From a virus, in IMG/VR virus record IMGVR_UViG_3300009512_000010, positions 1 through 64,000 of that record: a DNA stretch of 64,000 nt. One strand, given 5' to 3'. Below are positions 21,762 to 61,243 of this stretch, piece by piece. Made by a program: the position numbers and the translations under genes. Position 1 is the first letter of the stretch; each line of letters starts with the position of its first letter. A model generated the notes under the pieces. The model worked only from the letters and a program-made list of their open reading frames with translations, made no database searches and was not told the origin of the DNA.

Positions 21762-21790
21762 ATTATACTATAGATTCGATGTGGTGTCAA
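21762..21790 (-). promoter_or_regulatory. Sigma70-type promoter for gp32
   Basis: TTGACA-17-TATAAT, CGAATC in spacer. Confidence 0.85.
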
Positions 21791-21793
21791 CCA

Positions 21794-22027
21794 TCAATCA
21801 TCGAACAATAGTACATTTTGTCTAGGGAGATAGTTCAACTTCATAGCTTCCCCCTCTAACTTCTCAACGATAACGTTGTTAAGAAACTTCTTTACATCCT
21901 CTGGTTCAATGTTTGTATCTTCACAGACATCGATGACTGCATCCATATAGGATAGGTTCTTGTCATATGCGGATGCTTCAACCATGCTTGAGAACTTGCT
22001 CTTATTTAGAAACTCTGTTTCACTCAT
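21794..22027 (-). CDS. gp33: Late transcription co-activator gp33
   Basis: FSSMVE, SYMDAVIDVCE, EKLEGEAMKLNYL motifs; adjacent to gp32. Confidence 0.88.
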   Translation of the reverse strand: MSETEFLNKSKFSSMVEASAYDKNLSYMDAVIDVCEDTNIEPEDVKKFLNNVIVEKLEGEAMKLNYLPRQNVLLFDD

Positions 22028-23133
22028 TTACTCATTGCCCTTAAGATGATTGTATCCCTATTTAGTCTTCCGTTTGGAGCGGTAGTATTGGTAGTTAGTG
22101 CACTCCACGCCTTACCAATTTGATTTGGCGTTTTGCTTAAGGCAACAGGGAGAACATCATTTGGTTTACGGAGTGTGATCTGCCTTGATAGATCTGCATC
22201 CCAACCCTTAAGTGATGTTCCTTTAACTTCAAACCCTGTTGCCTTATGGCTTACGTATTCGATCAGTTTCTTTGACTTGATGTTAAAGCAATACAATCTC
22301 ATCGCACCCACGATTGACATGGGGTGGATTGATTTGAGTTTGTACTCTTTGTTTTCAGAACAAATCTGTATCTTAACGACTTGCTTGTCCGCACTCTTAA
22401 CACGTATTTTGCGTGGTGTGCGTGTAGCTTTCTTAGCCGCCACATACTTATCAGCATCATCAATGATACTCTGAACGAATGCGAGATACTTCTTCCATAC
22501 ACTCAGTGGTTGACTAGAGTATGCCTCAACAAGATCGGGAGTTTTCTTGCTGATTAGCTCAGTCAGTTCATTACGTAATGGTGTGTAGAAAGAAACCACT
22601 GCACTCGCTGTTGATTGTGGAAAGGCATCTTTAAGCAAATCAACATATACAGTGTGAGTGGACTTTTCTGTCCATTCATCAAGAGTGATTTCAATGCCCC
22701 CAATGAAGTCCGAAGTCTTCTCTTGGATAATCTCAGCGGGTGTTTTACGTGGTTTAGATACCACTTCCTCTGTCTTGGCATACAGGTACTTATTACCCAT
22801 CTCCTCAAGGTAAGCAAAGAAAGTGTCCAAAGCGGACTTTGCATTCCAATTGTCTGGAAATGCCTTGCCCTTCTGTTCCCACAAGATAGTAGAAGCAATG
22901 AAGTGCTTAGGCGTGAAAGCCCACTCTGGTGCGGCAAGGTAAACTCTTTGTTTATCCTTGTCGAATGTCTGCTTGATGTAAGTCTTAATGAAAGACGCAA
23001 CGTCCTTCTTATCGACTTCCATACGGATGTAGTCGTTGAAATGGGTAAAGTTTGTGTCAGGTGCCGCACCAATACCTGTACGAGCACGTGCTCTTGGTAA
23101 TGATTTAGTCTTCTTCATTTTTTTGATAGCCAT
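22024..23133 (-). CDS. Conserved hypothetical protein of marine T4-like phages
   Basis: 369-aa ORF; KGTSL, LRKP, NGRLN..TIILR C-terminal motifs. Confidence 0.75.
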   Translation of the reverse strand: MAIKKMKKTKSLPRARARTGIGAAPDTNFTHFNDYIRMEVDKKDVASFIKTYIKQTFDKDKQRVYLAAPEWAFTPKHFIASTILWEQKGKAFPDNWNAKSALDTFFAYLEEMGNKYLYAKTEEVVSKPRKTPAEIIQEKTSDFIGGIEITLDEWTEKSTHTVYVDLLKDAFPQSTASAVVSFYTPLRNELTELISKKTPDLVEAYSSQPLSVWKKYLAFVQSIIDDADKYVAAKKATRTPRKIRVKSADKQVVKIQICSENKEYKLKSIHPMSIVGAMRLYCFNIKSKKLIEYVSHKATGFEVKGTSLKGWDADLSRQITLRKPNDVLPVALSKTPNQIGKAWSALTTNTTAPNGRLNRDTIILRAMSK

Positions 23134-23162
23134 AACGAATCTCCTTCAAGTAGTTACATAAT

Positions 23163-23191
23163 ACATTAACCTAGCACAAAACTGTTGTCAA
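23163..23191 (-). promoter_or_regulatory. Sigma70-type early promoter
   Basis: TTGACA-17-TAATGT. Confidence 0.7.
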
Positions 23192-23194
23192 CCC

Positions 23195-23434
23195 CTATTC
23201 AACATCTTTTTTAGATACCTTCTGTTGGTTCCAAGGATGTAGAACTAACTCGTCGTTAGCATCCCAATGATGTTTAACAAACCCCTCGTCACATAGATAC
23301 TCAACGGTGGTGCTCACTATATCGTCACGTTTATCTGCCCACCAATGTTTATGGATCATCCATCCGCACCATGCACTAGCTACCCCGAAGAGAAATCCCA
23401 AAACATCTTGATCAATGTAAAACTGCAATCGCAT
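23195..23434 (-). CDS. Small membrane protein
   Basis: One hydrophobic segment; GGGAG Shine-Dalgarno. Confidence 0.65.
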   Translation of the reverse strand: MRLQFYIDQDVLGFLFGVASAWCGWMIHKHWWADKRDDIVSTTVEYLCDEGFVKHHWDANDELVLHPWNQQKVSKKDVE

Positions 23435-23455
23435 TCTCCCTCTGTAAACAACTAT

Positions 23456-23707
23456 TTAGGTGTCTATCTCAACGTCTTTTCTGAAGTGATATATTCCATG
23501 GGGTAAGTCCCACGCTTGCATTAGTTTACGATACATGTCGGATGTAAACCCAATAGCCATGAAGTTATTGTTTTGCTCATCCCACTGCCTAAGAAAGACA
23601 TCCCCCTGAGCATCAACGATCAGTTGAACATCCTCATAGGTCTCGGTTGTGTCGAGTATAGTGACTAACGTTTCGTTGAAATGCTCGTCTTCCTCAATGG
23701 TAATCAT
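23456..23707 (-). CDS. Hypothetical protein
   Basis: ORF in tightly packed operon; start placed at MITIEE. Confidence 0.7.
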   Translation of the reverse strand: MITIEEDEHFNETLVTILDTTETYEDVQLIVDAQGDVFLRQWDEQNNNFMAIGFTSDMYRKLMQAWDLPHGIYHFRKDVEIDT

Positions 23708-23709
23708 TC

Positions 23710-24178: not shown

Positions 24179-24366
24179 GATCTTTGATCAGCCCCATCCA
24201 ACCAAATTTGGTATTCACGTTCAACCTCGGCTTCCATGACAACCATGTTAGCGGCAAGTTCCCTCTTGAATTCGATAAGCTCTCTGATCGATTTGAAATC
24301 TGGTTTAGATATGTCAAGGATATCTTCCAACTTGTCGATGACCATTTGTGTATCAAGAATATCCAT
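24175..24366 (-). CDS. Small hypothetical early protein
   Basis: Coupled to upstream gene (TAATG overlap), GGAAG SD. Confidence 0.65.
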   Translation of the reverse strand: MDILDTQMVIDKLEDILDISKPDFKSIRELIEFKRELAANMVVMEAEVEREYQIWLDGADQRS

Positions 24367-24710
24367 TATGCCGCTTCCTTTTCAAAGTTCATTTCTATTT
24401 TCTCAAACCCCATCATGGCGCAGATAAACCACTCGCCATTGAGTTCGAAGATATCGCCAACAGAACTACTATGAGTACGGTCACCGATGACATCAACAGT
24501 GGGTTGATTATTCCAAAGGTTAGTCCACTCAAAAGCTTTTTCAAGATCACTAGTATATACAGTATAAGCAAGGTCGTAGAATTCAAAATTAGAAGTGTCA
24601 AATTTTCCCATACTAGCTTTACACTTAACTTCAAAAGCGGGAACCTTTTCGTTAGCATTAACGGCGTTGTATTGCTCGTTGGTCAGTTGAATTTGATAAA
24701 TGTTGATCAT
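24366..24710 (-). CDS. Hypothetical early protein (YodL-like S.SVGD motif)
   Basis: HSSSVGDIFELNGEWFICAMMGF; start moved to MINIYQ because the longer ORF overlaps its own promoter. Confidence 0.7.
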   Translation of the reverse strand: MINIYQIQLTNEQYNAVNANEKVPAFEVKCKASMGKFDTSNFEFYDLAYTVYTSDLEKAFEWTNLWNNQPTVDVIGDRTHSSSVGDIFELNGEWFICAMMGFEKIEMNFEKEAA

Positions 24711-24741: not shown

Positions 24742-24770
24742 TCTATAGCAAATTGATTCGGGGGTGTCAA
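24742..24770 (-). promoter_or_regulatory. Sigma70-type early promoter with GANTC motif
   Basis: TTGACA-17-TATAGA; TGATTCG at 24754-24760. Confidence 0.75.
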
Positions 24771-24997
24771 CCCACTATTTTAAAAGGAACCTGAGTTTCT
24801 AACCACTTTACGGCATCTGTTGCGCAAGTGAATACTTCTTCGTCACCTTCTAAAGTAACGGCATCTTCAAAAGAACCTACCCAACCGACACATGCGACAT
24901 GCTCTACAAAACAGTTTTTTGTGGCATTGGTAGACTTAAAGAAGTTAGGGAACTGTGTCTCTTCGAACTTCATCATAGTGTCAAATACGTTTGTCAT
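24767..24997 (-). CDS. Small hypothetical early protein
   Basis: ORF behind its own promoter/leader cassette. Confidence 0.7.
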   Translation of the reverse strand: MTNVFDTMMKFEETQFPNFFKSTNATKNCFVEHVACVGWVGSFEDAVTLEGDEEVFTCATDAVKWLETQVPFKIVG

Positions 24998-25028
24998 TGG
25001 ATGTCTCTTTCTTTGTTTCTATACATTC

Positions 25029-25057
25029 TTTATAGGTGATTCGAATGATATTGTCAA
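25029..25057 (-). promoter_or_regulatory. Sigma70-type early promoter with GANTC motif
   Basis: TTGACA-17-TATAAA; TGATTCG at 25037-25043. Confidence 0.75.
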
Positions 25058-25092: not shown

Positions 25093-25121
25093 TTGACAGA
25101 ATCAGAGAATCTATGTATAAT
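25093..25121 (+). promoter_or_regulatory. Consensus sigma70 promoter of the radical SAM operon
   Basis: TTGACA-GAATCAGAGAATCTATG-TATAAT; two GAATC sites in the spacer. Confidence 0.85.
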
Positions 25122-25193
25122 AAAGGATCAGCTTCGAACACAGGGAAAGGATATATTAATTGTCTATATACTCTGTAATGAAATGGAATACGT

Positions 25194-32393: not shown

Positions 32394-32401
32394 TATTTAT
32401 A
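32394..32401 (-). promoter_or_regulatory. T4-type late promoter TATAAATA
   Basis: Exact motif 30 nt upstream of the kinase start. Confidence 0.75.
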
Positions 32402-32807
32402 CAACTTGGTAAGGCTTGTTCCACTTACCAACATTGATATCTAAATAATAAGCAATGTGGAAGTAGTCAGTCATCATATCACTCTCGTCAAACCAACCAG
32501 TACCTTTCATAGCTCCGATCAACTCACCGAAGAATTTACCGATAACACCTTCGCCTTCGTCAGCACGGTAAGGATTAACTTGGTAATAACCGTCTGTGAT
32601 CTCATAGGCTTGTTCGCCACGCCACTCAGCCTTTTCAGCATTAGACTTGTTAGCCGCACCGATAAAGTCTAGAGCACCTTCTTTAAGGTTAACAACTAGG
32701 CTAGAGTGATGACGAATAGCGATAGTGCCTTTAACGCCGTACTTCTTAAGAACAGCTTTGATTGAAGGAGCTAATGCTTTTTTGTCTTCTTGTGAAATGT
32801 AGGCCAT
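32397..32807 (-). CDS. Conserved hypothetical early protein
   Basis: MAYISQEDKKALAPSIK...FDESDMMTDYFH.AYY..INVGKWNKPY. Confidence 0.8.
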   Translation of the reverse strand: MAYISQEDKKALAPSIKAVLKKYGVKGTIAIRHHSSLVVNLKEGALDFIGAANKSNAEKAEWRGEQAYEITDGYYQVNPYRADEGEGVIGKFFGELIGAMKGTGWFDESDMMTDYFHIAYYLDINVGKWNKPYQVV

Positions 32808-32813
32808 GATGTA

Positions 32814-32869
32814 TCTCGCTTTCTTTGTTTCTATACCATCTTTGTATTTGATTCGGATTGGTTTGTCAA
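32814..32869 (-). promoter_or_regulatory. Early promoter plus leader cassette (33-bp copy at 61188-61220)
   Basis: TTGACA-17-TACAAA; TGATTCG at 32849-32855. Confidence 0.75.
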
Positions 32870-33005: not shown

Positions 33006-33395
33006 TTAAGATCCTGTTACTAATTCAAATGAACCGTCTGCTTGTCTATCGAAACCTTCCACATATCTGTGGTGGTTGTCTTGCTCAATAGCAGACTGTG
33101 TGATCAAGTATTCGGCGGCTTTCCAAAACTCTTTGACAGTGTTGCCCATGACATAGGCTTTGTAAACGATCTTCTCATGAGTGTTGTTCATCATCTGCTC
33201 AACTGTAGCACCTTTAGCAATAACTTCATAAGTGATCTTCTGTTGACCGTCACCCTTTTGGGCAGAACCTTCCCACTCACCTTCATACATCACTTGATCA
33301 AGGCTAGTGAACTCGGTGTCACAAGACCAGATTGAGTTGTAGTTCAGAGCATCTTGGTGGAAACCGAAGTATTTGCTTTGTTCATCGTAGGTCAT
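33006..33395 (-). CDS. Hypothetical early protein
   Basis: ORF behind promoter cassette; ends HRYVEGF...FELVTGS. Confidence 0.75.
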   Translation of the reverse strand: MTYDEQSKYFGFHQDALNYNSIWSCDTEFTSLDQVMYEGEWEGSAQKGDGQQKITYEVIAKGATVEQMMNNTHEKIVYKAYVMGNTVKEFWKAAEYLITQSAIEQDNHHRYVEGFDRQADGSFELVTGS

Positions 33396-33427
33396 GTAAG
33401 TCTCACTTTCTTTGTTTCTATACTATT

Positions 33428-33456
33428 TTAATAGCACACCGATTCGGGGTTGTCAA
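33428..33456 (-). promoter_or_regulatory. Early promoter with GANTC motif
   Basis: TTGACA-17-TATTAA; CGATTCG at 33440-33446. Confidence 0.75.
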
Positions 33457-33635: not shown

Positions 33636-33818
33636 CTAATCTACATAAGAATTAGTTATTTTATCCCATCCCCAAGCAACAAACTTGCCCATCTCTTCGC
33701 CTTCTTTAATGCCCACATTAAAAGCACACTCTTTAAAAGCAGAAGTGATCTCTAAATCAGGATACATATCGATTATCTGACACGCTTGATTATAGGCATT
33801 TTCAAAATTAGTATTCAT
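33636..33818 (-). CDS. Small hypothetical early protein
   Basis: AAGGAG SD, own promoter. Confidence 0.7.
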   Translation of the reverse strand: MNTNFENAYNQACQIIDMYPDLEITSAFKECAFNVGIKEGEEMGKFVAWGWDKITNSYVD

Positions 33819-33834: not shown

Positions 33835-34155
33835 CTACATTACACTCATAGCTGATTCGGATCGACTTGTCAACCCCTTTATTGCCATCTGCGCAACTTC
33901 TTCGAATTCGACATTGGCAATCATATCCTCAAGACGATCTTGGATCTCGACTAACTCGTCAAACGATTTGTCCATATCAAAGACAGCATCATTACAAGCA
34001 CCTGTGAGTTCTTCAATCTGCTTTTCGGTATCCCAATCAAAATCACCGCTTAGGGCATTTGATAGAGCACGTTCAGCATCACGCTTATTTGCTTTAAGAG
34101 CATTAGACGCTATGATGATATCTTCAAGAGTTTCTTTGATTAACTGGATAGACAT
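33835..34155 (-). CDS. Hypothetical coiled-coil early protein
   Basis: ORF with AAAGGA SD and own promoter. Confidence 0.7.
   Translation of the reverse strand: MSIQLIKETLEDIIIASNALKANKRDAERALSNALSGDFDWDTEKQIEELTGACNDAVFDMDKSFDELVEIQDRLEDMIANVEFEEVAQMAIKGLTSRSESAMSVM
33845..33873 (-). promoter_or_regulatory. Early promoter with GANTC motif (inside the 3' end of the upstream ORF)
   Basis: TTGACA-17-TATGAG; TGATTCG at 33853-33859. Confidence 0.7.
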
Positions 34156-34184: not shown

Positions 34185-34213
34185 GTAATAGCGAATGATT
34201 CGTCCTATGTCAA
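34185..34213 (-). promoter_or_regulatory. Early promoter with GANTC motif
   Basis: TTGACA-17-TATTAC; TGATTCG at 34196-34202. Confidence 0.7.
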
Positions 34214-34216: not shown

Positions 34217-35296
34217 CTATTTTCCGATATATTCGTGTGAGTAACACACTCTATCTGCGTGTTTGAAATGACTATCAGCAAATCCACCATAACTAGGTTT
34301 ATCTGGGTTTGCCATTGATCCTGTCTTATAATCCTGTCTGGATATACCATTCTTGGATGTAGCTCTCCATTTTTCGCTACGGTTACGATACTCTCCCAAT
34401 CTAGGGTGAGCCGTTTTTGTAAAATATCTTTTACCTTCGGCTAAATGAATATCGCCCAAAGCATCAGTCAACCTAGCACCTATGCCCAATCCTTGATACT
34501 CTGGTAATACCACTGTGCGATGACCTCGCCAAGCTTTCTTTAAACTACCAGAAGGCATGCTTAAGCTAGAAAGAAATCCGACAAGTCTGCCGTTCCATGT
34601 TGCGATCCAACAAGATGCACCTTTGTGGATGTGGTAGTCGAGATAGTGATGGTCGCTGAAGGTCGTCCAGATGTCTCTGGTACAAGGCTTGATTTCCAAA
34701 ACGATATCTGGCCTTTGATACCCCCTTGTGGTCAGCTTACCTGTTTGAGTATCGAATACCCAATCAGGTTGCAACCACTCAATGATGTCATAGTGACAAG
34801 AGGAGAATACGATGTTCTTTAGATTATTTCTTTTAACATAACGTGAGATAGCATTAGAGCAACTCTTAGCGACATCTCTATCAATAACAGATGTGAACTC
34901 ATCCACAACAATATTACTGCCTAGTTGCCTAGCTAACCTAGCTCGGAACTGTTCTCCATTAGAAAGAACATGATAGGGACGCATCCAAGAGGGAATACTG
35001 TTAAACCCAACAGCACCTAAACGATCTTGAACATCATCAATATCCTTGAAATGAGAAGCGATAGATTTGTTATCAAACCAATAAGGATCCTGTTCAGAAC
35101 CAAATTCTTTAAGTAGAGTGGTCTTACCAGATCCCGAAGGTCCTACAATAAGACCAATACCAAAGTCTTTGAGCGTTGTCTCACGATCAATTGAATTGAT
35201 TTCATGTGGATGAAACGTAGATGTCCCATCAAACTCATAGTCAAAGATCCGACTGATCTCATCCGTGATACCATCACGCTCTACTGTTACTTCCAT
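34217..35296 (-). CDS. ABC-type ATPase fused to GNAT acyltransferase (Mom-like)
   Basis: GPSGSGKT, LSNGE, IVVDE, SCH; then HHYL and HRTVVLPEYQGLGIG. Confidence 0.85.
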   Translation of the reverse strand: MEVTVERDGITDEISRIFDYEFDGTSTFHPHEINSIDRETTLKDFGIGLIVGPSGSGKTTLLKEFGSEQDPYWFDNKSIASHFKDIDDVQDRLGAVGFNSIPSWMRPYHVLSNGEQFRARLARQLGSNIVVDEFTSVIDRDVAKSCSNAISRYVKRNNLKNIVFSSCHYDIIEWLQPDWVFDTQTGKLTTRGYQRPDIVLEIKPCTRDIWTTFSDHHYLDYHIHKGASCWIATWNGRLVGFLSSLSMPSGSLKKAWRGHRTVVLPEYQGLGIGARLTDALGDIHLAEGKRYFTKTAHPRLGEYRNRSEKWRATSKNGISRQDYKTGSMANPDKPSYGGFADSHFKHADRVCYSHEYIGK

Positions 35297-35816
35297 TTCG
35301 CTTTCCTTTCATCTTTGGGTTGTTAGCCCAATATATAGTGTTGGGTGGTAGGATCCCATGCATGAACCAAGCATTACCAAAGTGTGGTGCGCCACCACCT
35401 GTGAAGTCTACTCTGTTATTATACACCAGTGTAGACATTCCATAGTCCATGAACATCTGTCCACGTTTACCACCTTGGAACGATGCTACAGGTAGGAATA
35501 ACGCAAATGGTTTGCCTAACGAATAGCAATGCTCAATAAACTTATCCTTCAGACTGTATGGTGGATTAGTTATAATACCGTCATATACATCATCAGGTTG
35601 ACACCCAAAGAAATCTTTTCCCTGACTGCCTACCATATTATAACCGAATTTGTGCATTCCGTCAAGTATATTCGAAGAGATCCCCGAAGTAGCTTCGTAG
35701 TATGTCTTATCCTTATCTAGATATTCCAACAAAGGAATGATTTGATCTGATGGCGTGTAGCACTCATCACTTTCAGCATTCCGACTAGTTCGTTTAATCA
35801 TTTCAAGATTTGACAT
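35274..35816 (-). CDS. Small N6-adenine methyltransferase
   Basis: SDECYTP, DFF, ITNPPYS (motif IV), GKPFALFLP. Confidence 0.82.
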   Translation of the reverse strand: MSNLEMIKRTSRNAESDECYTPSDQIIPLLEYLDKDKTYYEATSGISSNILDGMHKFGYNMVGSQGKDFFGCQPDDVYDGIITNPPYSLKDKFIEHCYSLGKPFALFLPVASFQGGKRGQMFMDYGMSTLVYNNRVDFTGGGAPHFGNAWFMHGILPPNTIYWANNPKMKGKRNGSNSRA

Positions 35817-36659: not shown

Positions 36660-36733
36660 TGGCAAAGGTGGAAGGAGTTGAACCCTCGCTTGCGGATTTG
36701 GAATCCGCCGTGCTACCATAACACTTCACCCCT
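36660..36733 (-). tRNA. trnW: tRNA-Trp(CCA)
   Basis: AGGGGTG acceptor, GCGGA-TTCCAAA-TCCGC anticodon arm, GGTTCAACTCC T-arm, encoded CCA. Confidence 0.93.
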
Positions 36734-36740
36734 ACGCATT

Positions 36741-36818
36741 TGGTGTTTCCTGTAGGACTCGAACCTACGGCCTAGTCATTAGAAGTGACTTGCTCTAATC
36801 CAGCTGAGCTAAGGAAAC
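36741..36818 (-). tRNA. trnR: tRNA-Arg(TCT)
   Basis: GTTTCCT/AGGAAAC acceptor, TAGCTCAGCTGG D-arm, AGTCA-CTTCTAA-TGACT, GGTTCGAGTCC, CCA end. Confidence 0.95.
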
Positions 36819-37980: not shown

Positions 37981-38580
37981 TTATGGCGTTACAATTGTAA
38001 CATTCTGTGGGCATTCCATCTTAGTATTAGAATGTTTATGGAATAGTCTGAACTCCGTGTCAGGGAACTCTTTAAACAACTGAGGCCAAATTCCTCGCCA
38101 GTTGTTAGCCAGTCTGTTGGTGTTCTGTTGACCACGATCTGATTCTAGATAGAAATCAGTAGAGCTTGTCATGTCAAAGTCGAAGATAGAGTTAAAGCCA
38201 AACATGTTACACACCTTTGGTTTCCATCTACTGACGCCATAGTGTGTTGCTACGTGACCACAGTTGAAATCGGTTGCATTACGTGCGTATGGTGGCACAT
38301 CAAGGTAGAAGCCACGGATCTGTGATGCATGTCTTAGATAGAAAGAAGAGTTCTGTTCCATGTGGATCTTAGGTCTGTTGCCAAGGATCCAATGACCAGG
38401 AACTTGTACACTACCATCTTGGATTGCTCTCATCATTTTAAAGTCAACCATTATAGTCGCAAATACATTATCGATAGCCATGGGTGGTAGATTGCACGTT
38501 AGTCTAATACCCTTTTGGTCATCTCTAAAGTACCCTGCACTTTGACCATTACCAATAATGTTTACAATATCTTCGCTCAT
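37981..38580 (-). CDS. Glycosylation-island protein (DUF115/sialyltransferase-like N-terminal motif)
   Basis: VNIIGNGQS, TCN, NCGH, MFGFNS. Confidence 0.55.
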   Translation of the reverse strand: MSEDIVNIIGNGQSAGYFRDDQKGIRLTCNLPPMAIDNVFATIMVDFKMMRAIQDGSVQVPGHWILGNRPKIHMEQNSSFYLRHASQIRGFYLDVPPYARNATDFNCGHVATHYGVSRWKPKVCNMFGFNSIFDFDMTSSTDFYLESDRGQQNTNRLANNWRGIWPQLFKEFPDTEFRLFHKHSNTKMECPQNVTIVTP

Positions 38581-39209
38581 TACTTCATCATCTCTTTAAT
38601 TACTTCTTTACCCTTACCGCCTGTCCAATGCACGATAGCCGCATCGTCAAACCCTGGGTACTTATCTTGTATATCTAGGCGTAGGAAATTGTACCTTGCT
38701 GGCAAATGATTGATATGGGTAATCTCTCTGATGGGATCCCCACCAAGCATCCAATTCAACACTTCCTGATCACCAACTTCATTCGTTAGACCATCTTTGA
38801 TGTATCTAGCCCATTCAGATAGAATAGGTGGAATACCTTCAAACCCCACAACACCACTGTTGTACCAAGTACCACGATCACCACGTCTTGTAGTCCATGG
38901 ACGATCTACTGCCATAGTCAACTTCTGAGATGAAATGTGATTAAAGATACCGTCTAGGTTCTTCTTAACTTCGCAATCGCTGTCGATCCACACAACCTGA
39001 TCTGCAATAGCGGAAGCATCCATCATAGCGGCAGGTTTCTTAAACCAACCCTGTAGATCCTGTCTGAAGGTGTCAAACTCATAGACTGCTAGTTGCGCAT
39101 CTGGATTGTGTAGGGTAAAGTTTTCTTCGAACCACGGCAACATCCAATCAGTCTTTTTATCAGCCCCTGTGATATAGAGTTTGTTAAACTGCTTCTTAGA
39201 TAATGCCAT
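38580..39209 (-). CDS. Glycosyltransferase, GT-A fold (GT8-like)
   Basis: WFKKP, WIDSD, YNSGV, GDQEVLN, IVHWTG. Confidence 0.85.
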   Translation of the reverse strand: MALSKKQFNKLYITGADKKTDWMLPWFEENFTLHNPDAQLAVYEFDTFRQDLQGWFKKPAAMMDASAIADQVVWIDSDCEVKKNLDGIFNHISSQKLTMAVDRPWTTRRGDRGTWYNSGVVGFEGIPPILSEWARYIKDGLTNEVGDQEVLNWMLGGDPIREITHINHLPARYNFLRLDIQDKYPGFDDAAIVHWTGGKGKEVIKEMMK

Positions 39210-39837
39210 AGTCTTCTCCATAATTATGTTTGGCTAGACAGCCTGTCTCATTCTGAATAGTAGTAAAACTATCGTCACAGTCTACAGGCCATGGATAGTA
39301 CTCTTCTAGCCATGGGAATAGTCTGTTGTTAAGATATATATCTGTGGGTTGTGCATTGAATACCGCTTCGGCAATGATAGCTTCAGCACCCCTTGGAGTG
39401 ACTGCATATGCGTGTGCTCCGGGTAAGTATTGTTTTGAAACCAATTTACCAAGACCTAGATTGGGCATAATGTATTTACCATAGGATGGTTTACCGATGT
39501 TTACCAACCCATTGAATGGCATCTTGGGGATAGCCGCCTTGACAACCGCATCGTGCTCGAAGATAATGATTGATTCATTTAGTTCCACACACTTCTTCCA
39601 CAATAGGAAGTGTGACATGAATGCCGACACAACTCTATCATATCTTGAATACTTCTCAAGGAAGTTCTTAACAGGGATGCCGTGCTTTTCTGCCAAAGAA
39701 AACACACTCTGTTCTGGTGTGATAGCGTCAAACACCTCTATACTATCATCATTATGCCGTTTAAACGACTTTATGCAACGATCAGACATCTCCACACTCT
39801 GTGGATTATCTTTTATTGTGATAACAAATGCTCTCAT
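39196..39837 (-). CDS. Glycosyltransferase family 25-like
   Basis: FDAITP, FMSHFLLWKKC, IFEHDA, GAHAYAVTP.GA. Confidence 0.85.
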   Translation of the reverse strand: MRAFVITIKDNPQSVEMSDRCIKSFKRHNDDSIEVFDAITPEQSVFSLAEKHGIPVKNFLEKYSRYDRVVSAFMSHFLLWKKCVELNESIIIFEHDAVVKAAIPKMPFNGLVNIGKPSYGKYIMPNLGLGKLVSKQYLPGAHAYAVTPRGAEAIIAEAVFNAQPTDIYLNNRLFPWLEEYYPWPVDCDDSFTTIQNETGCLAKHNYGEDYGII

Positions 39838-40529
39838 AGTGTAGTCGTACTCCTAGTACGTTGTATCGTGGTATAATACTTCTTAGTCACACCGATATTC
39901 TTAATAATCTGTCTGCACATTATAGCATCATTAGGCCATAGGCCATACTGATAACATGCTCTCAACAGATCATCTGCCCCATCTGGTGTTAGTATATATG
40001 CACTGTTTCCAGCGATACCTTGAGGCACACCCCAACCATCTATATGAGGAACTGGTTGCACCACTTCTTTTCTATTCTGTATTACATCATGAAACTGTTG
40101 CGATTTGCGTGTTGCTCCTAGTGGAGAATTAACACCTATGATATTATACCCTTTGTTTAGGTAATTGTCAACATTAAGATTGGTGGTAAATATCGCATCG
40201 TGTTCGAATATCAACATAGGTGCTTTGTTTCTAGAACATCTGTCCCACAACCTAAAGTGGCTCATAGAGCATGCTACACGTGCATGTCTATTGGCTGTCT
40301 GATATGCCACCTTCCTCAGTCCAGAAGCCATATCGTGGATCTCTCCATCCCAAGGCCAATTCCACTGAAGCTTGTATGCCTTAACCCACTCTTCAACATC
40401 GTCTGGCGTAGTGGCCTCGAAGGTCTTTATCTTAAATTTGTTATCAAACTTAGCAGAGGATGCAATGCAATTTGCGGCGGCAGTTTCGCTTACTTCGTTA
40501 CCCTTAATGGTTATAACGTGTGCTTCCAT
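39834..40529 (-). CDS. Glycosyltransferase family 25-like
   Basis: ACSMSHFRLW, IFEHDA, GNSAYILTPDGA. Confidence 0.85.
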   Translation of the reverse strand: MEAHVITIKGNEVSETAAANCIASSAKFDNKFKIKTFEATTPDDVEEWVKAYKLQWNWPWDGEIHDMASGLRKVAYQTANRHARVACSMSHFRLWDRCSRNKAPMLIFEHDAIFTTNLNVDNYLNKGYNIIGVNSPLGATRKSQQFHDVIQNRKEVVQPVPHIDGWGVPQGIAGNSAYILTPDGADDLLRACYQYGLWPNDAIMCRQIIKNIGVTKKYYTTIQRTRSTTTL

Positions 40530-41771: not shown

Positions 41772-41808
41772 ATTAATTCCTCTTCAAAGTATTCGATGTT
41801 ATCTATAC

Positions 41809-42597
41809 TCATAGGTTCCACCCCTCAACAGGTTTGTTAGCAATATCTTTCATAGTCCACAGGGTAAAATCGCCTTTACCTCGTATCTGTACATGTACAA
41901 ACTTAGTATCTTTTGTTCTTAAATCATTGATAGGTCTCGGATCCTGTGTCTCTGGAACGTAGTTCACTGAGCTATTCCAAGTATAGTCTAGCAACCCCCA
42001 ATTAACACCACACATCATTACATTCAAATAGTTCTGATCAAGTGTATAAAATCTAGGAAATCTACTAGCTCCATTTATGTAATTAGTAACCGATAACTCA
42101 AAGTTACCGACAAGAGTACGAAACTTCTTTCGTCCTTCTTTAGAATATAGCACGACACCAGAATTAAATACTCTTACTCTACCGTCTTCGGTTCTAGGTA
42201 CAGATGCGCCATATGTGCGTTTAGCCCATTCTGCCCACTCATTATCTCGTGCACCAGTAATACCACCAACATTGTATTTGGCTCTTGCTTCTGGTTGGTT
42301 CCATTCTTCGGCAATCAATACATCACGATCATTCATCTCATCAAAGATATTATCGGTAAGCCCATCAATAGGAATGATATCGCAATCTGCAAATAGGATG
42401 TTGTCATACTTATCAAACTCAGGATCAATCACTGGACGAAATGCGCCATAGTATGGATTGCTCTTAATCCACCCCTGATTATCATCAAAGATATATTCAG
42501 CACCAATTCTTTCAGCATAATCTTTCATAAGAAGAACACCAGCCGCCACACCAGTGGTTACCTTACCCTCATAGTACTGATATATTAGATTAGACAA
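41809..42597 (-). CDS. Glycosyltransferase, GT-A fold (GT8-like)
   Basis: YDNILFADCD, FNSGVV, DQNYLN, WN, FVH. Confidence 0.82.
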   Translation of the reverse strand: MSNLIYQYYEGKVTTGVAAGVLLMKDYAERIGAEYIFDDNQGWIKSNPYYGAFRPVIDPEFDKYDNILFADCDIIPIDGLTDNIFDEMNDRDVLIAEEWNQPEARAKYNVGGITGARDNEWAEWAKRTYGASVPRTEDGRVRVFNSGVVLYSKEGRKKFRTLVGNFELSVTNYINGASRFPRFYTLDQNYLNVMMCGVNWGLLDYTWNSSVNYVPETQDPRPINDLRTKDTKFVHVQIRGKGDFTLWTMKDIANKPVEGWNL

Positions 42598-43375
42598 TTT
42601 TCTTCAACTCCTCTACGTTCTCGCCCCTATCAGGTAGTTTATCTTTAAGGAAGAAGTGAATGAAGTGTGCGTCTTTCAGAAGTTCATTAGGAATAGCAGT
42701 GTACAATGCATTAAACTTATAGTCTAAATGCTTTACCTTCATACCAGTCATATTAATGAATGTGTTAAGTAACGTCTGATCCGTAGACCATTTCCATGTG
42801 CCCTTACCATCAACGAATGCTTTAAACATAGGTTGGGTGATCCACTCTTTGGGTGACATACCATTTAATTGTTTTGAGAACGATTTATTCATAACCATCA
42901 TACCCATGTTCATAAACGCACCACCATTAGGATGATTGAAGTCGAAGTCCATACCAGACTGACCGTCAAGAGAACCATACTGCATTCTAGAATAGTTACG
43001 GATCTTATTAGCGTATTGGGGAGTTACAGGCATCTCACGTTCATAGACACCACCAAAGTCATGATCATCTAACTCGTCAAACACATTAGGGGAGTTCTCA
43101 CGAATGTAGATGTCACTGTCGATGATAGCGATCTGATCATACTCAGGGAAATACTCAAAGGCATTCTCTTTCTCAAAGATAGGTAGATACCCCAAACGAG
43201 AAGCACCCTCACTACGATTGGTAGTAAAGGGATCTGGTTTGATAAACAGTTTAGGTGATGTCAGTAGAACATAATCGGCGTTAATGCTATCGGCATATGC
43301 CTTTACACTCTCGGTACACCAATTGTATAGGTTGGACGATTGCCCAACATAGACTTGATAGATCAATCTTTTCAT
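42590..43375 (-). CDS. Glycosyltransferase, GT-A fold (GT8-like)
   Basis: YDQIAIIDSDI, NMGMMV, DQTLLN, FIHFF. Confidence 0.82.
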   Translation of the reverse strand: MKRLIYQVYVGQSSNLYNWCTESVKAYADSINADYVLLTSPKLFIKPDPFTTNRSEGASRLGYLPIFEKENAFEYFPEYDQIAIIDSDIYIRENSPNVFDELDDHDFGGVYEREMPVTPQYANKIRNYSRMQYGSLDGQSGMDFDFNHPNGGAFMNMGMMVMNKSFSKQLNGMSPKEWITQPMFKAFVDGKGTWKWSTDQTLLNTFINMTGMKVKHLDYKFNALYTAIPNELLKDAHFIHFFLKDKLPDRGENVEELKKIV

Positions 43376-45777: not shown

Positions 45778-46347
45778 TTATATAGCTACGTTATATCGGA
45801 ACCAATCGGGTACGACAGAGTTAGTCCAGACCATAGAGAAACGCTCTTGCTTGGTTTGATAGAACTTACGGTATGATCCAATAGGATCTGACTTGTCAAT
45901 ACACTCTGGTGATGCACCCATAGCAAGTTCAAACGGTGTTACAATATTGCTATAGCATGTCATAGTAGGAGCACGTTTGAGCAAATCACGTAACTTAGTA
46001 TCAGTCATATGCACTTTACCATAACGTTTTGTATACTCGTCACATAGCGCAATGAAGTGTTTATAATGCCAATTGTAATTGGAGTTAGTTTTCATAGTCC
46101 ATACAGTACAGGGATGGCCTGTGTGTACAGCCTTATATAACGCTTGCTCCATGACAGGGTTTTTGAGTTCCCAATACTTTGACATAGTCTTGCCTGATTG
46201 TGATGGACGTTTGGTTAACTTACCGTCTAACATACGGTGTGCAGTCGATAGCATCTGACCACTCTCTAGGATCATCTTGACTACATGTTTGTCGCACTGC
46301 ATTTGTGCTGATTTGATTGGGCACTTATCTAATATAAAGATATTCAT
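45778..46347 (-). CDS. Pyrimidine-dimer DNA glycosylase/DenV-like protein
   Basis: MNIFILD, DKHVVKMILESGQMLSTAH, HPCTVW, EY..RYGK.H. Confidence 0.8.
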   Translation of the reverse strand: MNIFILDKCPIKSAQMQCDKHVVKMILESGQMLSTAHRMLDGKLTKRPSQSGKTMSKYWELKNPVMEQALYKAVHTGHPCTVWTMKTNSNYNWHYKHFIALCDEYTKRYGKVHMTDTKLRDLLKRAPTMTCYSNIVTPFELAMGASPECIDKSDPIGSYRKFYQTKQERFSMVWTNSVVPDWFRYNVAI

Positions 46348-46381
46348 GGTACTCTCCACCTTTGCTTAACAATGTTACTTT

Positions 46382-46418
46382 ATTATACACACGTTAGGCA
46401 AAGGTGTCAAGTGATTCG
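46382..46418 (-). promoter_or_regulatory. Sigma70 promoter with TGATTCG just upstream of -35
   Basis: TTGACA-17-TATAAT; TGATTCG at 46412-46418. Confidence 0.8.
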
Positions 46419-48186: not shown

Positions 48187-48417
48187 CTAATCGTAACCTA
48201 GACGTGCCACCTTAGAGATCTCTTTGGCCTCTTCTTCTAGTCTATCAGACCAAGCAAGCTCAAAGCCTATGAGCCTATAACAGTATTCGTGGTTCCCCCA
48301 CATGCGTTTAAGGTAACTGTCATAGATCTTTTTGATCTCATCTAAGTCATTTCCCTTGGGGATCAGGTGACCCTTGACCGCCCAATGTAGTTCATTGGCG
48401 AATTTAACGTCCACCAT
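48187..48417 (-). CDS. Hypothetical protein
   Basis: ORF in operon. Confidence 0.65.
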   Translation of the reverse strand: MVDVKFANELHWAVKGHLIPKGNDLDEIKKIYDSYLKRMWGNHEYCYRLIGFELAWSDRLEEEAKEISKVARLGYD

Positions 48418-48844
48418 TGATCATTTCCGGGGCTAAATGAGAAACGTGCTTTGAATGGCACTTTAACCCTATGAATTCATTGTAATAATTAGGGTCAAAA
48501 AGTACGTTTTTCTCGAATTGTTCTTTAGCTTCCATATAAGACATTTCCCCCTTACTGACACACAAACGCACGATAGAACGTCTAAAACGATCTCCACTAT
48601 GTTCGGTCAGTATTTGTTTGATTGCTTCGTTGGATCCATAGTAATCCATCCAGTCGGATTCTTTTACTATCACACGTTTACGGCTCTTTCCCTTAAGTGG
48701 TGGCAACCGTCTAGTAGACCAAAAGTTCTTCTTTCCGATATACTTCATACCGTTAGCGGTATCAAGGATCTCATACACAAAACCCACCCACGATGATAAC
48801 TCATCAGGGGTGGGCTTAAATTCTTTATCTTCTAATAACCACAT
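48404..48844 (-). CDS. Free-standing GIY-YIG nuclease-domain protein
   Basis: GFVYEI....GMKYIGKK, WMDYYGS, E, YYN. Confidence 0.85.
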   Translation of the reverse strand: MWLLEDKEFKPTPDELSSWVGFVYEILDTANGMKYIGKKNFWSTRRLPPLKGKSRKRVIVKESDWMDYYGSNEAIKQILTEHSGDRFRRSIVRLCVSKGEMSYMEAKEQFEKNVLFDPNYYNEFIGLKCHSKHVSHLAPEMINGGR

Positions 48845-57442: not shown

Positions 57443-57443
57443 G

Positions 57444-59440: not shown

Positions 59441-59466
59441 CTCACTTCTCCTTGATAAGTTGATAC

Positions 59467-59474: not shown

Positions 59475-59478
59475 CCAT

Positions 59479-59661
59479 CTACTTGCGGCGAATAAACACC
59501 TTATTACCGATACTCTCTACATAGAATTGGTATTGTTCGAAATTGTCATCCATAAGATCTACGTTAAGAGTTTTGATAGTAGCTTGCAGAGATACCATCT
59601 CTGCTTCGCTAACATCTTCGGCATATAGATCTGGATCACGTTTGTCCATAATCAGTTTCAT
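59479..59661 (-). CDS. Small hypothetical protein
   Basis: ORF with GGGGA SD. Confidence 0.6.
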   Translation of the reverse strand: MKLIMDKRDPDLYAEDVSEAEMVSLQATIKTLNVDLMDDNFEQYQFYVESIGNKVFIRRK

Positions 59662-59671
59662 AACCTATCCC

Positions 59672-60646
59672 CTATGAAGCCAGTGCGTATTGCACTGCCT
59701 TCTCTGCCGCTTTCATCTTGCGGTTTTGGTTTGCGCCGAACCACTGGCTGTGGAGACGATTTTCTGCATTACGACCTTGAACGTGGTCTGTAACATAAGT
59801 TACTGAGTTGAATGCTTGCCACCAAGATCCTTCGGCGTAGTTGGCTCCCGGTTGGCTCTCTAACACATCATAGCAGTTCTTTGCTTGACGTGACAGATCA
59901 TCAACTGTCTTCACTGAGGCAACCTTACGCTTAGTGTCAGTGTGTGGGAACACATCGTTGTAGAAGTTGATGAGTTCTTCGGCACCGTAGCGGCGTGATC
60001 CAATGAACTGAGCCATCTCTTTATACTTCTCAAACTTCTCGTGTGCGATACCCAAGTGCTCTTTAGCCTGTTGTGGATCAAAAGCTTTACGGTGTGACAC
60101 CTTCTCAACACGCTTATCGTTAGCGTTAAGAGACATAGTCAATGTGTTGTTGCATACCACACGAACAGGTGTGAAGCGCACATCGATTGACTTACCGTAC
60201 ATGTGTGGATTGGAGAACAGCAAGAATGATTCTACTGTATCATCACCAAAGACATCGAAGCTTTCCTTGACCTTAGCCAAAGCCCATACCTGTTGACCAC
60301 CTTTAAGCGATCCCGCAGTATGCATCTCCATATCTCCTGCGGCAATGTATTCCGCAAAGAATTCAAACGCAGTCTCGTTCTGCACAGGGTTCCAATTCTC
60401 TCCAACATTGGTCAGAACTGAGTTATCAGATGTACGGATCAGGGACTGTTGTCCTGTCTTGATCTGTTGACCGTTAACGTTCACGAATGAATCGTGCTTC
60501 TCGACGTTCCAATCAAGACCCGCTTTTTGCATCATCTGAACAGGAGTGAGTTCGTTAGATACCTGAGTACCCAAGCCATGCCAAGGCGTATCGCCCGCAT
60601 AAGCCATCTGAGCAACACCGTCGATAATTTCTACTTCATGTGACAT
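59672..60646 (-). CDS. DUF932/DUF945-family protein
   Basis: PWHGLG, AGLDW.V, PVQN..AF.FF, TAGSL.GG..VW.LA, TPVRVVCNNTL, WW.AFN.VT...DH. Confidence 0.9.
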   Translation of the reverse strand: MSHEVEIIDGVAQMAYAGDTPWHGLGTQVSNELTPVQMMQKAGLDWNVEKHDSFVNVNGQQIKTGQQSLIRTSDNSVLTNVGENWNPVQNETAFEFFAEYIAAGDMEMHTAGSLKGGQQVWALAKVKESFDVFGDDTVESFLLFSNPHMYGKSIDVRFTPVRVVCNNTLTMSLNANDKRVEKVSHRKAFDPQQAKEHLGIAHEKFEKYKEMAQFIGSRRYGAEELINFYNDVFPHTDTKRKVASVKTVDDLSRQAKNCYDVLESQPGANYAEGSWWQAFNSVTYVTDHVQGRNAENRLHSQWFGANQNRKMKAAEKAVQYALAS

Positions 60647-60684
60647 TGTATTTCCCTTCACTTGTTTTCATAACTAATATAAAC

Positions 60685-60713
60685 AATATAGCATATTGAT
60701 TCGGAGTTGTCAA
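60685..60713 (-). promoter_or_regulatory. Early promoter with GANTC motif
   Basis: TTGACA-17-TATATT; TGATTCG at 60697-60703. Confidence 0.78.
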
Positions 60714-60716
60714 CCC

Positions 60717-60902
60717 CTAATCGAAGAAGTTTCCTTCAACCCAATCAAAAGCATTAGTGATCCCAACTTGGAACCATGCGCCATCTTTAGATCCTGCAAA
60801 TTTCCACAGGAGTTCTTTGTTGGCGGCTTCCATGGCACGGCTACAAGTTCCGTGCTCTTCAGTAAAGGTTACCCCATATGCGTTGAATGTATAAGTTTCC
60901 AT
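60717..60902 (-). CDS. Small hypothetical early protein
   Basis: METYTF start after AGGAG. Confidence 0.65.
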   Translation of the reverse strand: METYTFNAYGVTFTEEHGTCSRAMEAANKELLWKFAGSKDGAWFQVGITNAFDWVEGNFFD

Positions 60903-60912
60903 AATATATCTC

Positions 60913-61182
60913 CTAAGCGAACATTGGTTGCATGTTTGAGAACACAGCATTGTAGGCATTTACTTCACTGCTATAGTACTCAAAGAATTCGTCATCATCT
61001 TCAAAAGCTACAACAGCTACTTTTCCGTTGAAGAAATCATTTTGACTTGCAACGTATTCTGTCCAACAACGATCCATAGCTTCCATACCCTCAAGAGTAT
61101 CACCACGACCATGGCGTTTCATAGTGTCCCAACCTTCTTGGAAGGATACTTCGTCTTGGTAAAAATTAGGAATTCTAAACAT
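60913..61182 (-). CDS. Small hypothetical early protein
   Basis: ORF behind promoter cassette. Confidence 0.7.
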   Translation of the reverse strand: MFRIPNFYQDEVSFQEGWDTMKRHGRGDTLEGMEAMDRCWTEYVASQNDFFNGKVAVVAFEDDDEFFEYYSSEVNAYNAVFSNMQPMFA

Positions 61183-61187
61183 GTAAG

Positions 61188-61243
61188 TCTCGCTTTCTTT
61201 GTTTCTATACCATCTTTGTACCTGATTCGATATCAGATGTCAA
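61188..61243 (-). promoter_or_regulatory. Early promoter plus leader cassette (33-bp copy at 32814-32846)
   Basis: TTGACA-17-TACAAA; TGATTCG at 61223-61229. Confidence 0.75.

What the first reader, a model, noticed from the sequence alone, without database searches (positions are those of the whole stretch)
21762..61243. Early promoters carry the CcrM/GcrA methylation motif (TGATTCG), mostly where the -10 box is weak: possible epigenetic hijack of the host cell-cycle activator
Seen: nine minus-strand TTGACA-N17 promoters have GATTCG in the spacer in the same orientation (21773, 24755, 25038, 32850, 33441, 33854, 34197, 60698, 61224), mostly 4 or 8 nt from the -35 box. The + strand promoter at 25093 has two GAATC in its spacer, and another TGATTCG abuts the -35 at 46412. 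Seven of the nine lack the conserved last T of the -10 hexamer (TATAGA, TATAAA, TACAAA x2, TATTAA, TATGAG, TATTAC), whereas all eight promoters I found without a spacer motif keep it. Known: in Alphaproteobacteria CcrM methylates GANTC, and GcrA binds sigma70 plus methylated YGAKTC(G/T)-type sites to stimulate open-complex formation. Inference: a class of early genes depends on m6A-GANTC and GcrA (host or phage-encoded). That would tie expression to host cell-cycle state and could shut it off on newly replicated unmethylated DNA. It also points to an alphaproteobacterial host.
Basis: partly seen in the sequence, partly recalled or inferred. Interest (0 to 1): 0.88.

Follow-up and report, generated by a model that had tools for sequence, protein, structure and literature searches.

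The report
GcrA-type boxes in phage promoters
An uncultured marine T4-like phage puts the exact DNA word preferred by GcrA, the methylation-reading cell-cycle transcription cofactor of alphaproteobacteria, inside about a dozen of its host-type promoters, so it probably borrows that host factor for early transcription; this is not yet tested.

Summary
In the 160-kb phage genome, CGAATC (reverse complement GATTCG) lies in the -35/-10 spacer of 11 TTGACA-N17 promoters, against 0.08 expected. It is always on the non-template strand, and 7 of the 9 minus-strand sites in the window read TGATTCG. That heptamer is the published optimum site of Caulobacter GcrA. Strand and position (centres about -22 to -18, a few at -27) match the solved GcrA-RNA polymerase-promoter complex, whose scaffold reads TTGACA-N6-CGAATC-N5-TATAAT. 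Boxes stay intact in diverged relatives while neighbouring spacer bases change. Box promoters mostly lack the -7 T of the -10 hexamer. GANTC is otherwise depleted genome-wide (0.56 of expectation).

Cultured Rhodobacter and Ruegeria phages carry the same box at the same offset. T4, Cr30 and SAR11, OM43 and cyanobacterial phages do not.

The phage has no GcrA, CcrM-type methylase, MotA or AsiA. It does encode a small gamma-class adenine-methylase-like protein of unknown specificity.

The host, the methylation and GcrA dependence are all unproven. The proposed methylation-based shut-off is speculation.

This scan has noted the same kind of finding in at least 25 other phage genomes. I found no paper describing it.

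The parts
21762..21790 (-). Promoter of gp32 (ssDNA-binding protein, 20794-21708): TTGACA-N6-CGAATC-N5-TATAAT. The box is GATTCG at 21773-21778 on the + strand.
   Evidence: Same geometry as the cryo-EM PcsM scaffold. The 89% clade has CGATTC here: GANTC is kept and the centre base flipped.
24742..24770 (-). Box promoter, class A (box starts at spacer position 5). TGATTCG at 24754-24760, -10 TATAGA preceded by TGC. Drives a 114-aa ORF (24366-24710).
   Evidence: The orthologue in L008 keeps CGAATCA with 3 of 10 flank changes and has -10 TATACA.
25029..25057 (-). Box promoter, class B (box starts at position 9). TGATTCG at 25037-25043, -10 TATAAA. Drives a 76-aa ORF (24767-24997). Lies back to back with the promoter at 25093.
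25093..25121 (+). Consensus promoter with two GAATC (25099-25103, abutting the -35, and 25107-25111). Drives the + strand radical SAM operon (25194-).
   Evidence: Both boxes are kept in L008 while the last four spacer bases all differ.
32841..32869 (-). Box promoter, class B. TGATTCG at 32849-32855, -10 TACAAA, leader GATGGTATAGAAACAAAGAAAG. Drives a 136-aa ORF (32397-32807).
33428..33456 (-). Box promoter, class A. CGATTCG at 33440-33446, -10 TATTAA. Drives a 129-aa ORF (33006-33395).
33845..33873 (-). Box promoter, class B. TGATTCG at 33853-33859, -10 TATGAG. Drives a 60-aa ORF (33636-33818).
34185..34213 (-). Box promoter (box starts at position 6). TGATTCG at 34196-34202, -10 TATTAC. Drives a 106-aa ORF (33835-34155).
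   Evidence: The orthologue in L091 keeps the heptamer with 5 of 10 flank changes.
60685..60713 (-). Box promoter, class A. TGATTCG at 60697-60703, -10 TATATT. Drives a DUF932 protein (59672-60661).
61215..61243 (-). Box promoter, class B. TGATTCG at 61223-61229, -10 TACAAA, same leader as 32869. Drives an 89-aa ORF (60913-61182).
46382..46418 (-). Consensus promoter (TTGACA-N17-TATAAT) of the denV-like gene, with TGATTCG at 46412-46418 just upstream of the -35. Probably not part of the system.
   Evidence: The position is outside the known GcrA windows, and there is no enrichment upstream of -35 boxes.
35274..35816 (-). Small methyltransferase-like gene (P0121, 180 aa; motifs YYEATSG and ITNPPY). 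A candidate N6-adenine methylase of unknown specificity; its link to the boxes is unproven.
   Evidence: phrog_799 'DNA methyltransferase', E 5.6e-30. AlphaFold model pLDDT 83. Best folds are the catalytic domains of type I HsdM, M.TaqI and M.BseCI. No Pfam, NCBIfam or PDB sequence hit.

Best explanation
The CGAATC(A) word in the -35/-10 spacer is a functional cis element. Most likely it is read by the host's GcrA.

GcrA rides on sigma70 through its C-terminal domain. Its flexibly linked N-terminal domain binds TGATTCG-type GANTC sites, best when they carry N6-methyladenine. This helps RNA polymerase load and form an open complex.

The phage keeps a perfect -35. In most box promoters it has a -10 hexamer without the -7 T, so these promoters would fire well only with GcrA. 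Box-free TATAAT promoters would fire without it.

The host would then be an alphaproteobacterium, and GANTC methylation would come from host CcrM or possibly a phage enzyme.

Shown here: the element exists, is orientation-specific, is under purifying selection, and matches the GcrA site in sequence, strand and position.
For: 1. Enrichment and strand bias. There are 15 GAATC against 0 GATTC in TTGACA spacers, with 1.2 expected. CGAATC is the top spacer 6-mer, P 2.6e-20.

2. Identity. Seven of the nine sites in the window are exact TGATTCG, and 9 of 11 genome-wide fit CGAATCR, the reverse complement of YGATTCG. TGATTCG is the MEME consensus of GcrA-bound sites (PMC4647560). All seven of its bases contact the GcrA DNA-binding domain in the crystal structure (PMC5887438).

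3. Geometry. Known boxes centre at -20+/-1 and -30+/-2 in the spacer (PMC9976885). The cryo-EM scaffold reads TTGACA-CCCGGG-CGAATC-CCTGC-TATAAT on the non-template strand. The phage boxes are on the same strand, at spacer positions 5 to 9 (centres about -22 to -18), plus position 1 (about -27). The gp32 promoter has exactly the scaffold's spacing.

4. Selection. In seven orthologous promoter pairs with the 86-89% clades, 2 of 55 box positions changed against 21 of 64 other spacer positions, P 4e-5. A 77% relative, L126, has boxes in 9 of about 11 strong promoters, at varied offsets and in a different leader context. Common descent of one cassette therefore does not explain them.

5. Weak -10. 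The -7 T is missing in 7 of 10 box promoters against 0 of 10 box-free ones, P 0.003. Orthologues keep a non-T there while other -10 positions change.

6. GANTC is depleted to 0.56 of the Markov expectation, while GATC, GTNAC and CANTG are 0.91 to 1.03.

7. Cultured phages of Rhodobacterales carry the box in repeated promoter cassettes at the same offset and strand: RcXuper 9 sites and DSS3P8 7 sites, for example TTGACC-GGGCAAG-CGAATCG-TGG. MD18 has five TTGACA-GATTCG. Counts of the CGAATC pattern are 0 in Melnitz (OM43 host), HTVC008M and Cr30, 1 in T4 and 2 in a cyanophage; the inverted GATTCG pattern, run only on Melnitz and the cyanophage among these, gave 1 and 0.

8. The best phage matches of nrdA and nrdB are phages of Sinorhizobium, Ruegeria, Rhodobacter, Phaeobacter and Agrobacterium, unlike the T4 core genes.

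9. The phage encodes no MotA, AsiA or GcrA of its own.
Against: - The host is unknown. No direct host link could be made.
- The nearest cultured relatives by gp32 infect OM43 and cyanobacteria.
- The two main box classes lie 4 bp apart, about 137 degrees around the helix. Their centres (-22 and -18) fall just outside the published -20+/-1 window. My numbering assumes the start site from the -10 hexamer and may be off by 1 or 2.
- The bona fide Caulobacter T4-like phage Cr30 and the SAR11 phage HTVC008M have no such promoters. An alphaproteobacterial host therefore does not by itself predict the feature.
- Brevundimonas GcrA showed no extended-motif preference (PMC7987155).
- No CcrM-type methylase is encoded, and host CcrM is cell-cycle restricted in Caulobacter, so methylation of phage DNA is uncertain.
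- L126 has many boxes without GANTC depletion (0.91).
Confidence: 0.6

Rival explanations
1. The box is the site of another sequence-specific protein. This could be a phage early protein of unknown family, or a different host factor, acting as activator or as shut-off repressor on a subset of sigma70 promoters. The match to the GcrA site would then be coincidental.
For: The box is clearly functional but its reader is not identified. Most genes behind box promoters are small ORFs without known families, so an unknown regulator could be among them. Box use is patchy among related phages: it is present in the window's clade, L126 and L101, and absent in L088, L098, L099 and the 64-69% gp32 clades. 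That pattern fits a lineage-specific factor as well as a host switch.
Against: The heptamer, the strand and the spacer position all coincide with a factor characterised independently. The site is a 7-mer read at variable offsets, which suits a monomer on a flexible tether rather than a dimeric operator; no palindrome or extended flank is conserved. The same box occurs in unrelated siphophages of cultured Rhodobacterales, which argues for a shared host factor. MotA and AsiA are absent and the -35 is intact.
Confidence: 0.25
2. Methylation itself is the signal, without GcrA. N6-methyladenine at GANTC in the spacer, laid down by host CcrM, by a HinfI-like system or by the phage's own adenine methylase-like protein, would change promoter strength or block another protein. 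The GANTC sites would be kept for that reason.
For: GANTC is specifically depleted elsewhere in the genome. That shows pressure on the pentamer as such. In the 89% clade the gp32 box changed from GAATC to GATTC, which keeps GANTC but flips the asymmetric part. The phage encodes an adenine-methylase-like protein.
Against: A pure methylation signal needs only the palindromic GANTC. It explains neither the strict strand bias (15 GAATC against 0 GATTC) nor the conserved flanks C...A. The presence of the methylase-like gene does not track box promoters in relatives.
Confidence: 0.08
3. The box has no function of its own. It was carried along when one promoter-plus-leader cassette was duplicated through the early region.
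For: Five box promoters share the leader GTATAGAAACAAAGAAAG, and several are clearly paralogous.
Against: The same leader occurs without any GANTC in the 64-69% clades. Boxes sit at five different offsets and in promoters with unrelated leaders (gp32, DUF932, radical SAM operon). Box positions are conserved while the flanks diverge. Unrelated phages carry it.
Confidence: 0.03

Closest known systems
GcrA-activated, CcrM-methylated sigma70 promoters of Caulobacter crescentus (for example PcsM; Haakonsen 2015 PMC4647560; Wu 2018 PMC5887438; Wu 2023 PMC9976885)
   Same: The core is sigma70-type. A single GANTC site of the TGATTCG/YGAKTCG type sits in the -35/-10 spacer, with CGAATC on the non-template strand, centred near -20 (a minor class near -27). 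A poor -10 fits a factor that promotes open-complex formation.
   Different: Here the promoters belong to a lytic T4-like phage, not to cell-cycle genes. A dozen promoters carry the optimum heptamer, whereas cellular sites are degenerate. Box centres spread over -22 to -18. Host, methylation and GcrA dependence are not shown.
GcrA homologues encoded by phiCbK-like Caulobacter phages (Gill 2012, PMC3556154), and a GcrA-dependent prophage-like operon in Brevundimonas subvibrioides (PMC7987155)
   Same: These are links between phages and the GcrA circuit of alphaproteobacteria.
   Different: phiCbK brings the protein, and no promoter boxes were described for it. This phage brings the DNA sites and no protein. 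The Brevundimonas case is a resident, apparently defective prophage.
MotA/AsiA-dependent middle promoters of phage T4
   Same: A T4-like phage sets apart a promoter class by a short extra word upstream of the -10. That class would depend on an added factor bound to sigma70.
   Different: The MotA box replaces the -35 at -30 and needs phage MotA and AsiA. Here the -35 is a perfect TTGACA, the word lies further downstream, and neither gene is present.
Repeated promoter cassettes of Rhodobacter phage RcXuper and Roseobacter phage DSS3P8
   Same: They have TTGAC(N)-N7-CGAATCG on the same strand and at the same offset as class B here, with a poor -10 and a conserved leader.
   Different: They are unrelated siphophages with high G+C. 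As far as my literature searches show, these boxes have not been described or tested either.

Membership tests
GcrA-activated methylated sigma70 promoters | sigma70-type -35 and -10 elements | tested here: met
   TTGACA-N17-TAnnnn in all members, several with an extended -10 TGn.
GcrA-activated methylated sigma70 promoters | GANTC site with the extended motif YGAKTCG (optimum TGATTCG) | tested here: met
   Seven exact TGATTCG and one CGATTCG among the nine minus-strand sites. Genome-wide, 9 of 11 fit CGAATCR, against PMC4647560 and PMC5887438.
GcrA-activated methylated sigma70 promoters | Box centred at -20+/-1 or -30+/-2 in the spacer (or at +5 to +30) | tested here: inconclusive
   Inferred centres are -22 (3), -21, -20, -19, -18 (5) and -27 (2). 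They are counted from the -10 hexamer, not from mapped start sites, so they are near but not strictly inside the published windows.
GcrA-activated methylated sigma70 promoters | Same strand orientation as the solved PcsM complex | tested here: met
   The scaffold's non-template strand reads TTGACACCCGGGCGAATCCCTGCTATAAT. All phage boxes read CGAATC on the non-template strand.
GcrA-activated methylated sigma70 promoters | N6-methyladenine on the GANTC site (CcrM) | not testable with these tools
   No CcrM-type (PF01555) or Dam-type (PF02086) methylase is in the phage. A gamma-class methylase-like protein of unknown specificity is present. No methylome data are available.
GcrA-activated methylated sigma70 promoters | GcrA present in the cell and required for activation | not testable with these tools
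   The host is unidentified. The phage has no GcrA: PF07750 gave none, and custom HMMs gave a best E of 0.4.
T4 MotA-dependent middle promoters | MotA box at -30 in place of the -35, plus motA and asiA genes | tested here: not met
   The -35 is an intact TTGACA. PF09114 and PF09010 are not found in the 160 kb.

The most novel reading that the evidence does not exclude
The box promoters form a methylation-gated temporal class in a T4-like phage that has no MotA or AsiA. The injected, fully methylated genome would recruit GcrA-sigma70 holoenzyme to promoters that are otherwise crippled at -7. Replication would dilute the N6-methyladenine mark and passively switch this class off. The phage's own small adenine-methylase-like protein (35274-35816) may set or reset the mark before packaging.
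Probability: 0.15. Interest if true: 0.85.

Novelty: new variant of a known kind. Interest (0 to 1): 0.62.

Why it matters
If true, a lytic phage has written the recognition site of a host epigenetic reader into its early promoters. Infection would then depend on a cell-cycle cofactor, and perhaps on the methylation state of the incoming DNA.

That would be a new way for T4-like phages without MotA/AsiA to build promoter classes. It would also be a new role for the CcrM/GcrA module outside the cell cycle.

The box would serve as a sequence-only marker for phages of alphaproteobacteria in viromes.

The idea is directly testable. The same box occurs in cultured systems (DSS3P8 on Ruegeria pomeroyi, RcXuper on Rhodobacter capsulatus), and a purified Caulobacter GcrA/RNA polymerase transcription system exists.

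Tried and rejected
- Megablast of 10 kb against cultured phages found no match.
A scan of genome contigs with gp32 gave only distant T4-like contigs binned into unrelated MAGs. Earlier scan notes held nothing on relatives of this genome.
- Phage-encoded GcrA: PF07750 gave no match. Custom full-length, N-terminal and C-terminal HMMs, built from 16 alphaproteobacterial GcrA sequences, gave a best E of 0.4 against all 2330 six-frame ORFs. Rejected.
- CcrM-type and Dam-type methylases (PF01555, PF02086): none found.
- MotA and AsiA: none found.
- Cr30, a T4-like phage of Caulobacter, as a positive comparator: no box promoters, and GANTC at 0.85 of expectation in its first 50 kb. The feature is not general to T4-like phages of alphaproteobacteria.
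- Whole-genome counts of TTGAC-N8-10-CGAATC in 31 Rhodobacterales genomes gave 118, against 101 for the inverted box. The reversed-pattern control is also exceeded in a cyanobacterial, a Bacteroidota and an Opitutia genome. The test has no discriminating power, so nothing is concluded from it.
- GANTC between the Shine-Dalgarno sequence and the start codon, as possible downstream boxes: 16 regions against 11.3 +/- 3.5 in shuffles. Not significant.
- Correlation of the methylase-like gene with box promoters in relatives: none seen within the 20-kb loci.
- The TGATTCG at 46412 upstream of a -35 is treated as chance.

Full report
**What the DNA is.** The window is the first 64 kb of a 159,934-bp IMG/VR virus record, estimated 91% complete, with 40% G+C. 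It encodes gp32, T4-type RNase H, a SegE-like endonuclease, PhoH and nrdAB, so it is a T4-like myovirus. By gp32 the nearest cultured phages, at 52-55% identity, are Phage C48C1 (Kyanoviridae), the OM43 phage Melnitz and cyanomyoviruses. No cultured close relative exists.

**The observation.** Each lies in the 17-nt spacer of a minus-strand TTGACA promoter and reads CGAATC on the promoter strand.
- Genome-wide, 173 TTGACA words have 15 GAATC in the following 17 nt, against 1.2 expected. There is no GATTC, and neighbouring windows show no excess.
- CGAATC is by far the most enriched spacer hexamer: 11 promoters against 0.08 expected, P 2.6e-20. GAATCA comes next.
- Three further members lie outside the window, at 92128+, 95476+ and 139159+.
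- The box starts at spacer position 5 (three promoters), 6, 7, 8 or 9 (five promoters). Two + strand promoters have GAATC abutting the -35.
- The claim about weak -10 boxes holds. Seven of 10 box promoters in the window lack the -7 T, against 0 of 10 box-free promoters with a plausible gene downstream (P 0.003). With a looser promoter list the contrast is weaker.

**Is it selected?** I fetched IMG/VR relatives anchored on gp32 and on the GNAT/AAA gene at 34217-35296.
- Clades at 86-89% protein identity keep the heptamer in orthologous promoters while the rest of the spacer drifts. Two of 55 box positions changed against 21 of 64 others, P 4e-5.
- Their -10 hexamers change (TATAGA to TATACA, TACAAA to TATAAA, TATTAC to TATTAA) but stay without -7 T.
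- At the gp32 promoter the 89% clade has CGATTC, so GANTC is kept while the centre base is flipped.
- A 77% relative, L126, carries the box in 9 of about 11 strong promoters, at other offsets. These include a tandem CGAATCGAATCA and one inverted copy.
- More distant clades (64-69% gp32) use TTTACA -35 boxes and the same TATAGAAACAA leader, but have no GANTC in any spacer. The box is therefore not baggage of a duplicated cassette.
- GANTC is otherwise avoided: 0.56 of the Markov expectation in the genome, while GATC, GTNAC and CANTG are normal. The 86-98% clades show 0.43-0.5. Clades at about 62% show about 1.0.

**Comparison with GcrA biology.**
- In Caulobacter, sites bound by GcrA give the consensus TGATTCG, more broadly YGAKTCK (PMC4647560).
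- All seven bases contact the GcrA DNA-binding domain in the crystal structure (PMC5887438).
- Upstream boxes centre at -20+/-1 and -30+/-2 within the spacer. GcrA acts as a monomer tethered to sigma70 region 2 by a roughly 60-residue linker (PMC9976885).
- The non-template strand of the cryo-EM scaffold reads TTGACA-CCCGGG-CGAATC-CCTGC-TATAAT.
- The phage boxes have the same strand. Their offsets bracket this one, and the gp32 promoter (TTGACA-CCACAT-CGAATC-TATAG-TATAAT) has exactly the same spacing.
- Counted from the -10 hexamer, the phage boxes centre at about -22 to -18 and at -27. This is near the published windows but not strictly inside them. Start sites are not mapped, and the two main classes lie 4 bp apart. 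I therefore score this feature inconclusive rather than met.

**Who reads and who writes?**
- The phage has no GcrA. PF07750 gave nothing. HMMs that I built from 16 alphaproteobacterial GcrA sequences gave a best E of 0.4 over all six-frame ORFs. The HMMs used loci L168-L192 only.
- There is no CcrM/HinfI-type (PF01555) or Dam-type (PF02086) methylase, and no MotA or AsiA.
- A motif scan turned up a 180-aa protein at 35274-35816 with YYEATSG and ITNPPY. It matches phrog_799 'DNA methyltransferase' at E 5.6e-30. It has 745 unnamed metagenomic homologues.
- Its model (pLDDT 83) resembles the catalytic domains of gamma-class N6-adenine DNA methylases: type I HsdM, M.TaqI and M.BseCI.
- It lacks a target-recognition domain and its specificity is unknown. 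Its presence does not track box promoters in the fetched relatives. It is a lead, not part of the argument.

**Host.** I could not identify it. The indirect pointers to an alphaproteobacterium are these.
- The box itself and the GANTC-specific depletion.
- nrdA and nrdB. Their best phage matches (58-64%) are all phages of Sinorhizobium, Ruegeria, Rhodobacter, Phaeobacter and Agrobacterium, unlike the T4 core genes.
Whole-record pattern counts of TTGAC-N1-13-CGAATC give 11 in this phage, 9 in Rhodobacter phage RcXuper and 7 in Roseobacter phage DSS3P8. They give 0 in Melnitz, HTVC008M and Cr30, 1 in T4, 2 in a cyanophage and 3 in C48C1.
- In RcXuper and DSS3P8 the hits are repeated promoter cassettes, with the box at spacer position 8, a TGn and a poor -10. 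Phaeobacter phage MD18 instead has five TTGACA-GATTCG.

The feature is not universal among phages of alphaproteobacteria. Cr30 and the SAR11 phage lack it.

**Reading.** The element is certainly functional. I put GcrA as its reader at about 0.6. Another phage or host protein gets about 0.25, methylation acting without GcrA about 0.08, and no function about 0.03. The proposed coupling to the cell cycle, and the shut-off on unmethylated daughter DNA, are untested; I give that extended model about 0.15.

**Known or new?** Full-text searches found three related things: GcrA homologues in phiCbK-like phages (PMC3556154), a GcrA-dependent prophage-like operon in Brevundimonas (PMC7987155), and the Caulobacter promoter work. 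They found no description of GcrA boxes in phage promoters. Within this scan, the same kind of finding has been noted in at least 25 other phage genomes.

Noticed in passing
window 35274-35816 (-): A 180-aa protein with the motifs YYEATSG and ITNPPY. It matches phrog_799 'DNA methyltransferase', has no Pfam family, and folds like the catalytic domain of gamma-class N6-adenine DNA methylases without a target-recognition domain. It is a widespread, unnamed metagenomic family of 165-200 aa.
   Followed up: partly
window 24995-25028, 32808-32840, 33396-33427, 61183-61214; also 95505-95535 of the genome: A conserved leader, GTATAGAAACAAAGAAAG(C/T)GAGA, follows five or six early promoters. It also occurs, without any GANTC box, behind TTTACA promoters of relatives at 64-69% gp32 identity. 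In class B promoters it supplies a second, extended -10-like TGGTATAGA, which would place the box at about -29.
   Followed up: partly
window 25093-25190 (+) and 46330-46410 (-); genome 92128-92230 (+) and 139159-139260 (+): Four paralogous consensus promoters (TATAAT) are followed by AAAG(G/T)A...GGGGAGAGAG. The copies at 92128 and 139159 have no ORF of 50 aa or more for over 600 nt downstream. They might drive antisense or non-coding transcripts.
   Followed up: no
whole 160-kb genome: GANTC is at 0.56 of its Markov expectation, while GATC, GTNAC and CANTG are normal. The depletion fades in more distant relatives.
   Followed up: yes
window 35637-35665 (-), inside the methylase-like gene: TTGACG-N17-TATAAT lies inside the coding sequence and is conserved in relatives L089 and L091. 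It may be an internal promoter for the GNAT/AAA gene, or coding constraint only.
   Followed up: no
loci L091 and L126 (relatives): Many leaders end in GAGAATCAC just before the ATG. This is a second GAATC at roughly +25, inside the window where downstream GcrA boxes act in Caulobacter. In the window's own genome, GANTC between the Shine-Dalgarno sequence and the ATG is not significantly enriched.
   Followed up: partly
window 36660-36818 (-): tRNA-Trp(CCA) and tRNA-Arg(TCT) genes lie side by side.
   Followed up: no
window 38580-43375 (-): A run of four GT8- and GT25-like glycosyltransferase genes lies in the early region.
   Followed up: no
window 48404-48844 (-): A SegE-like GIY-YIG homing endonuclease gene lies next to nrdA.
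   Followed up: no
records OP186293.1 (RcXuper) 139271-142811 and KT870145.1 (DSS3P8) 872-963, 142310-143299: Repeated promoter cassettes (A-tract, TTGAC(C/G), N7, CGAATCG, TGG, poor -10, leader cttaccgaaacg) occur in cultured Rhodobacterales phages. They are a tractable system for testing the GcrA-box idea.
   Followed up: partly
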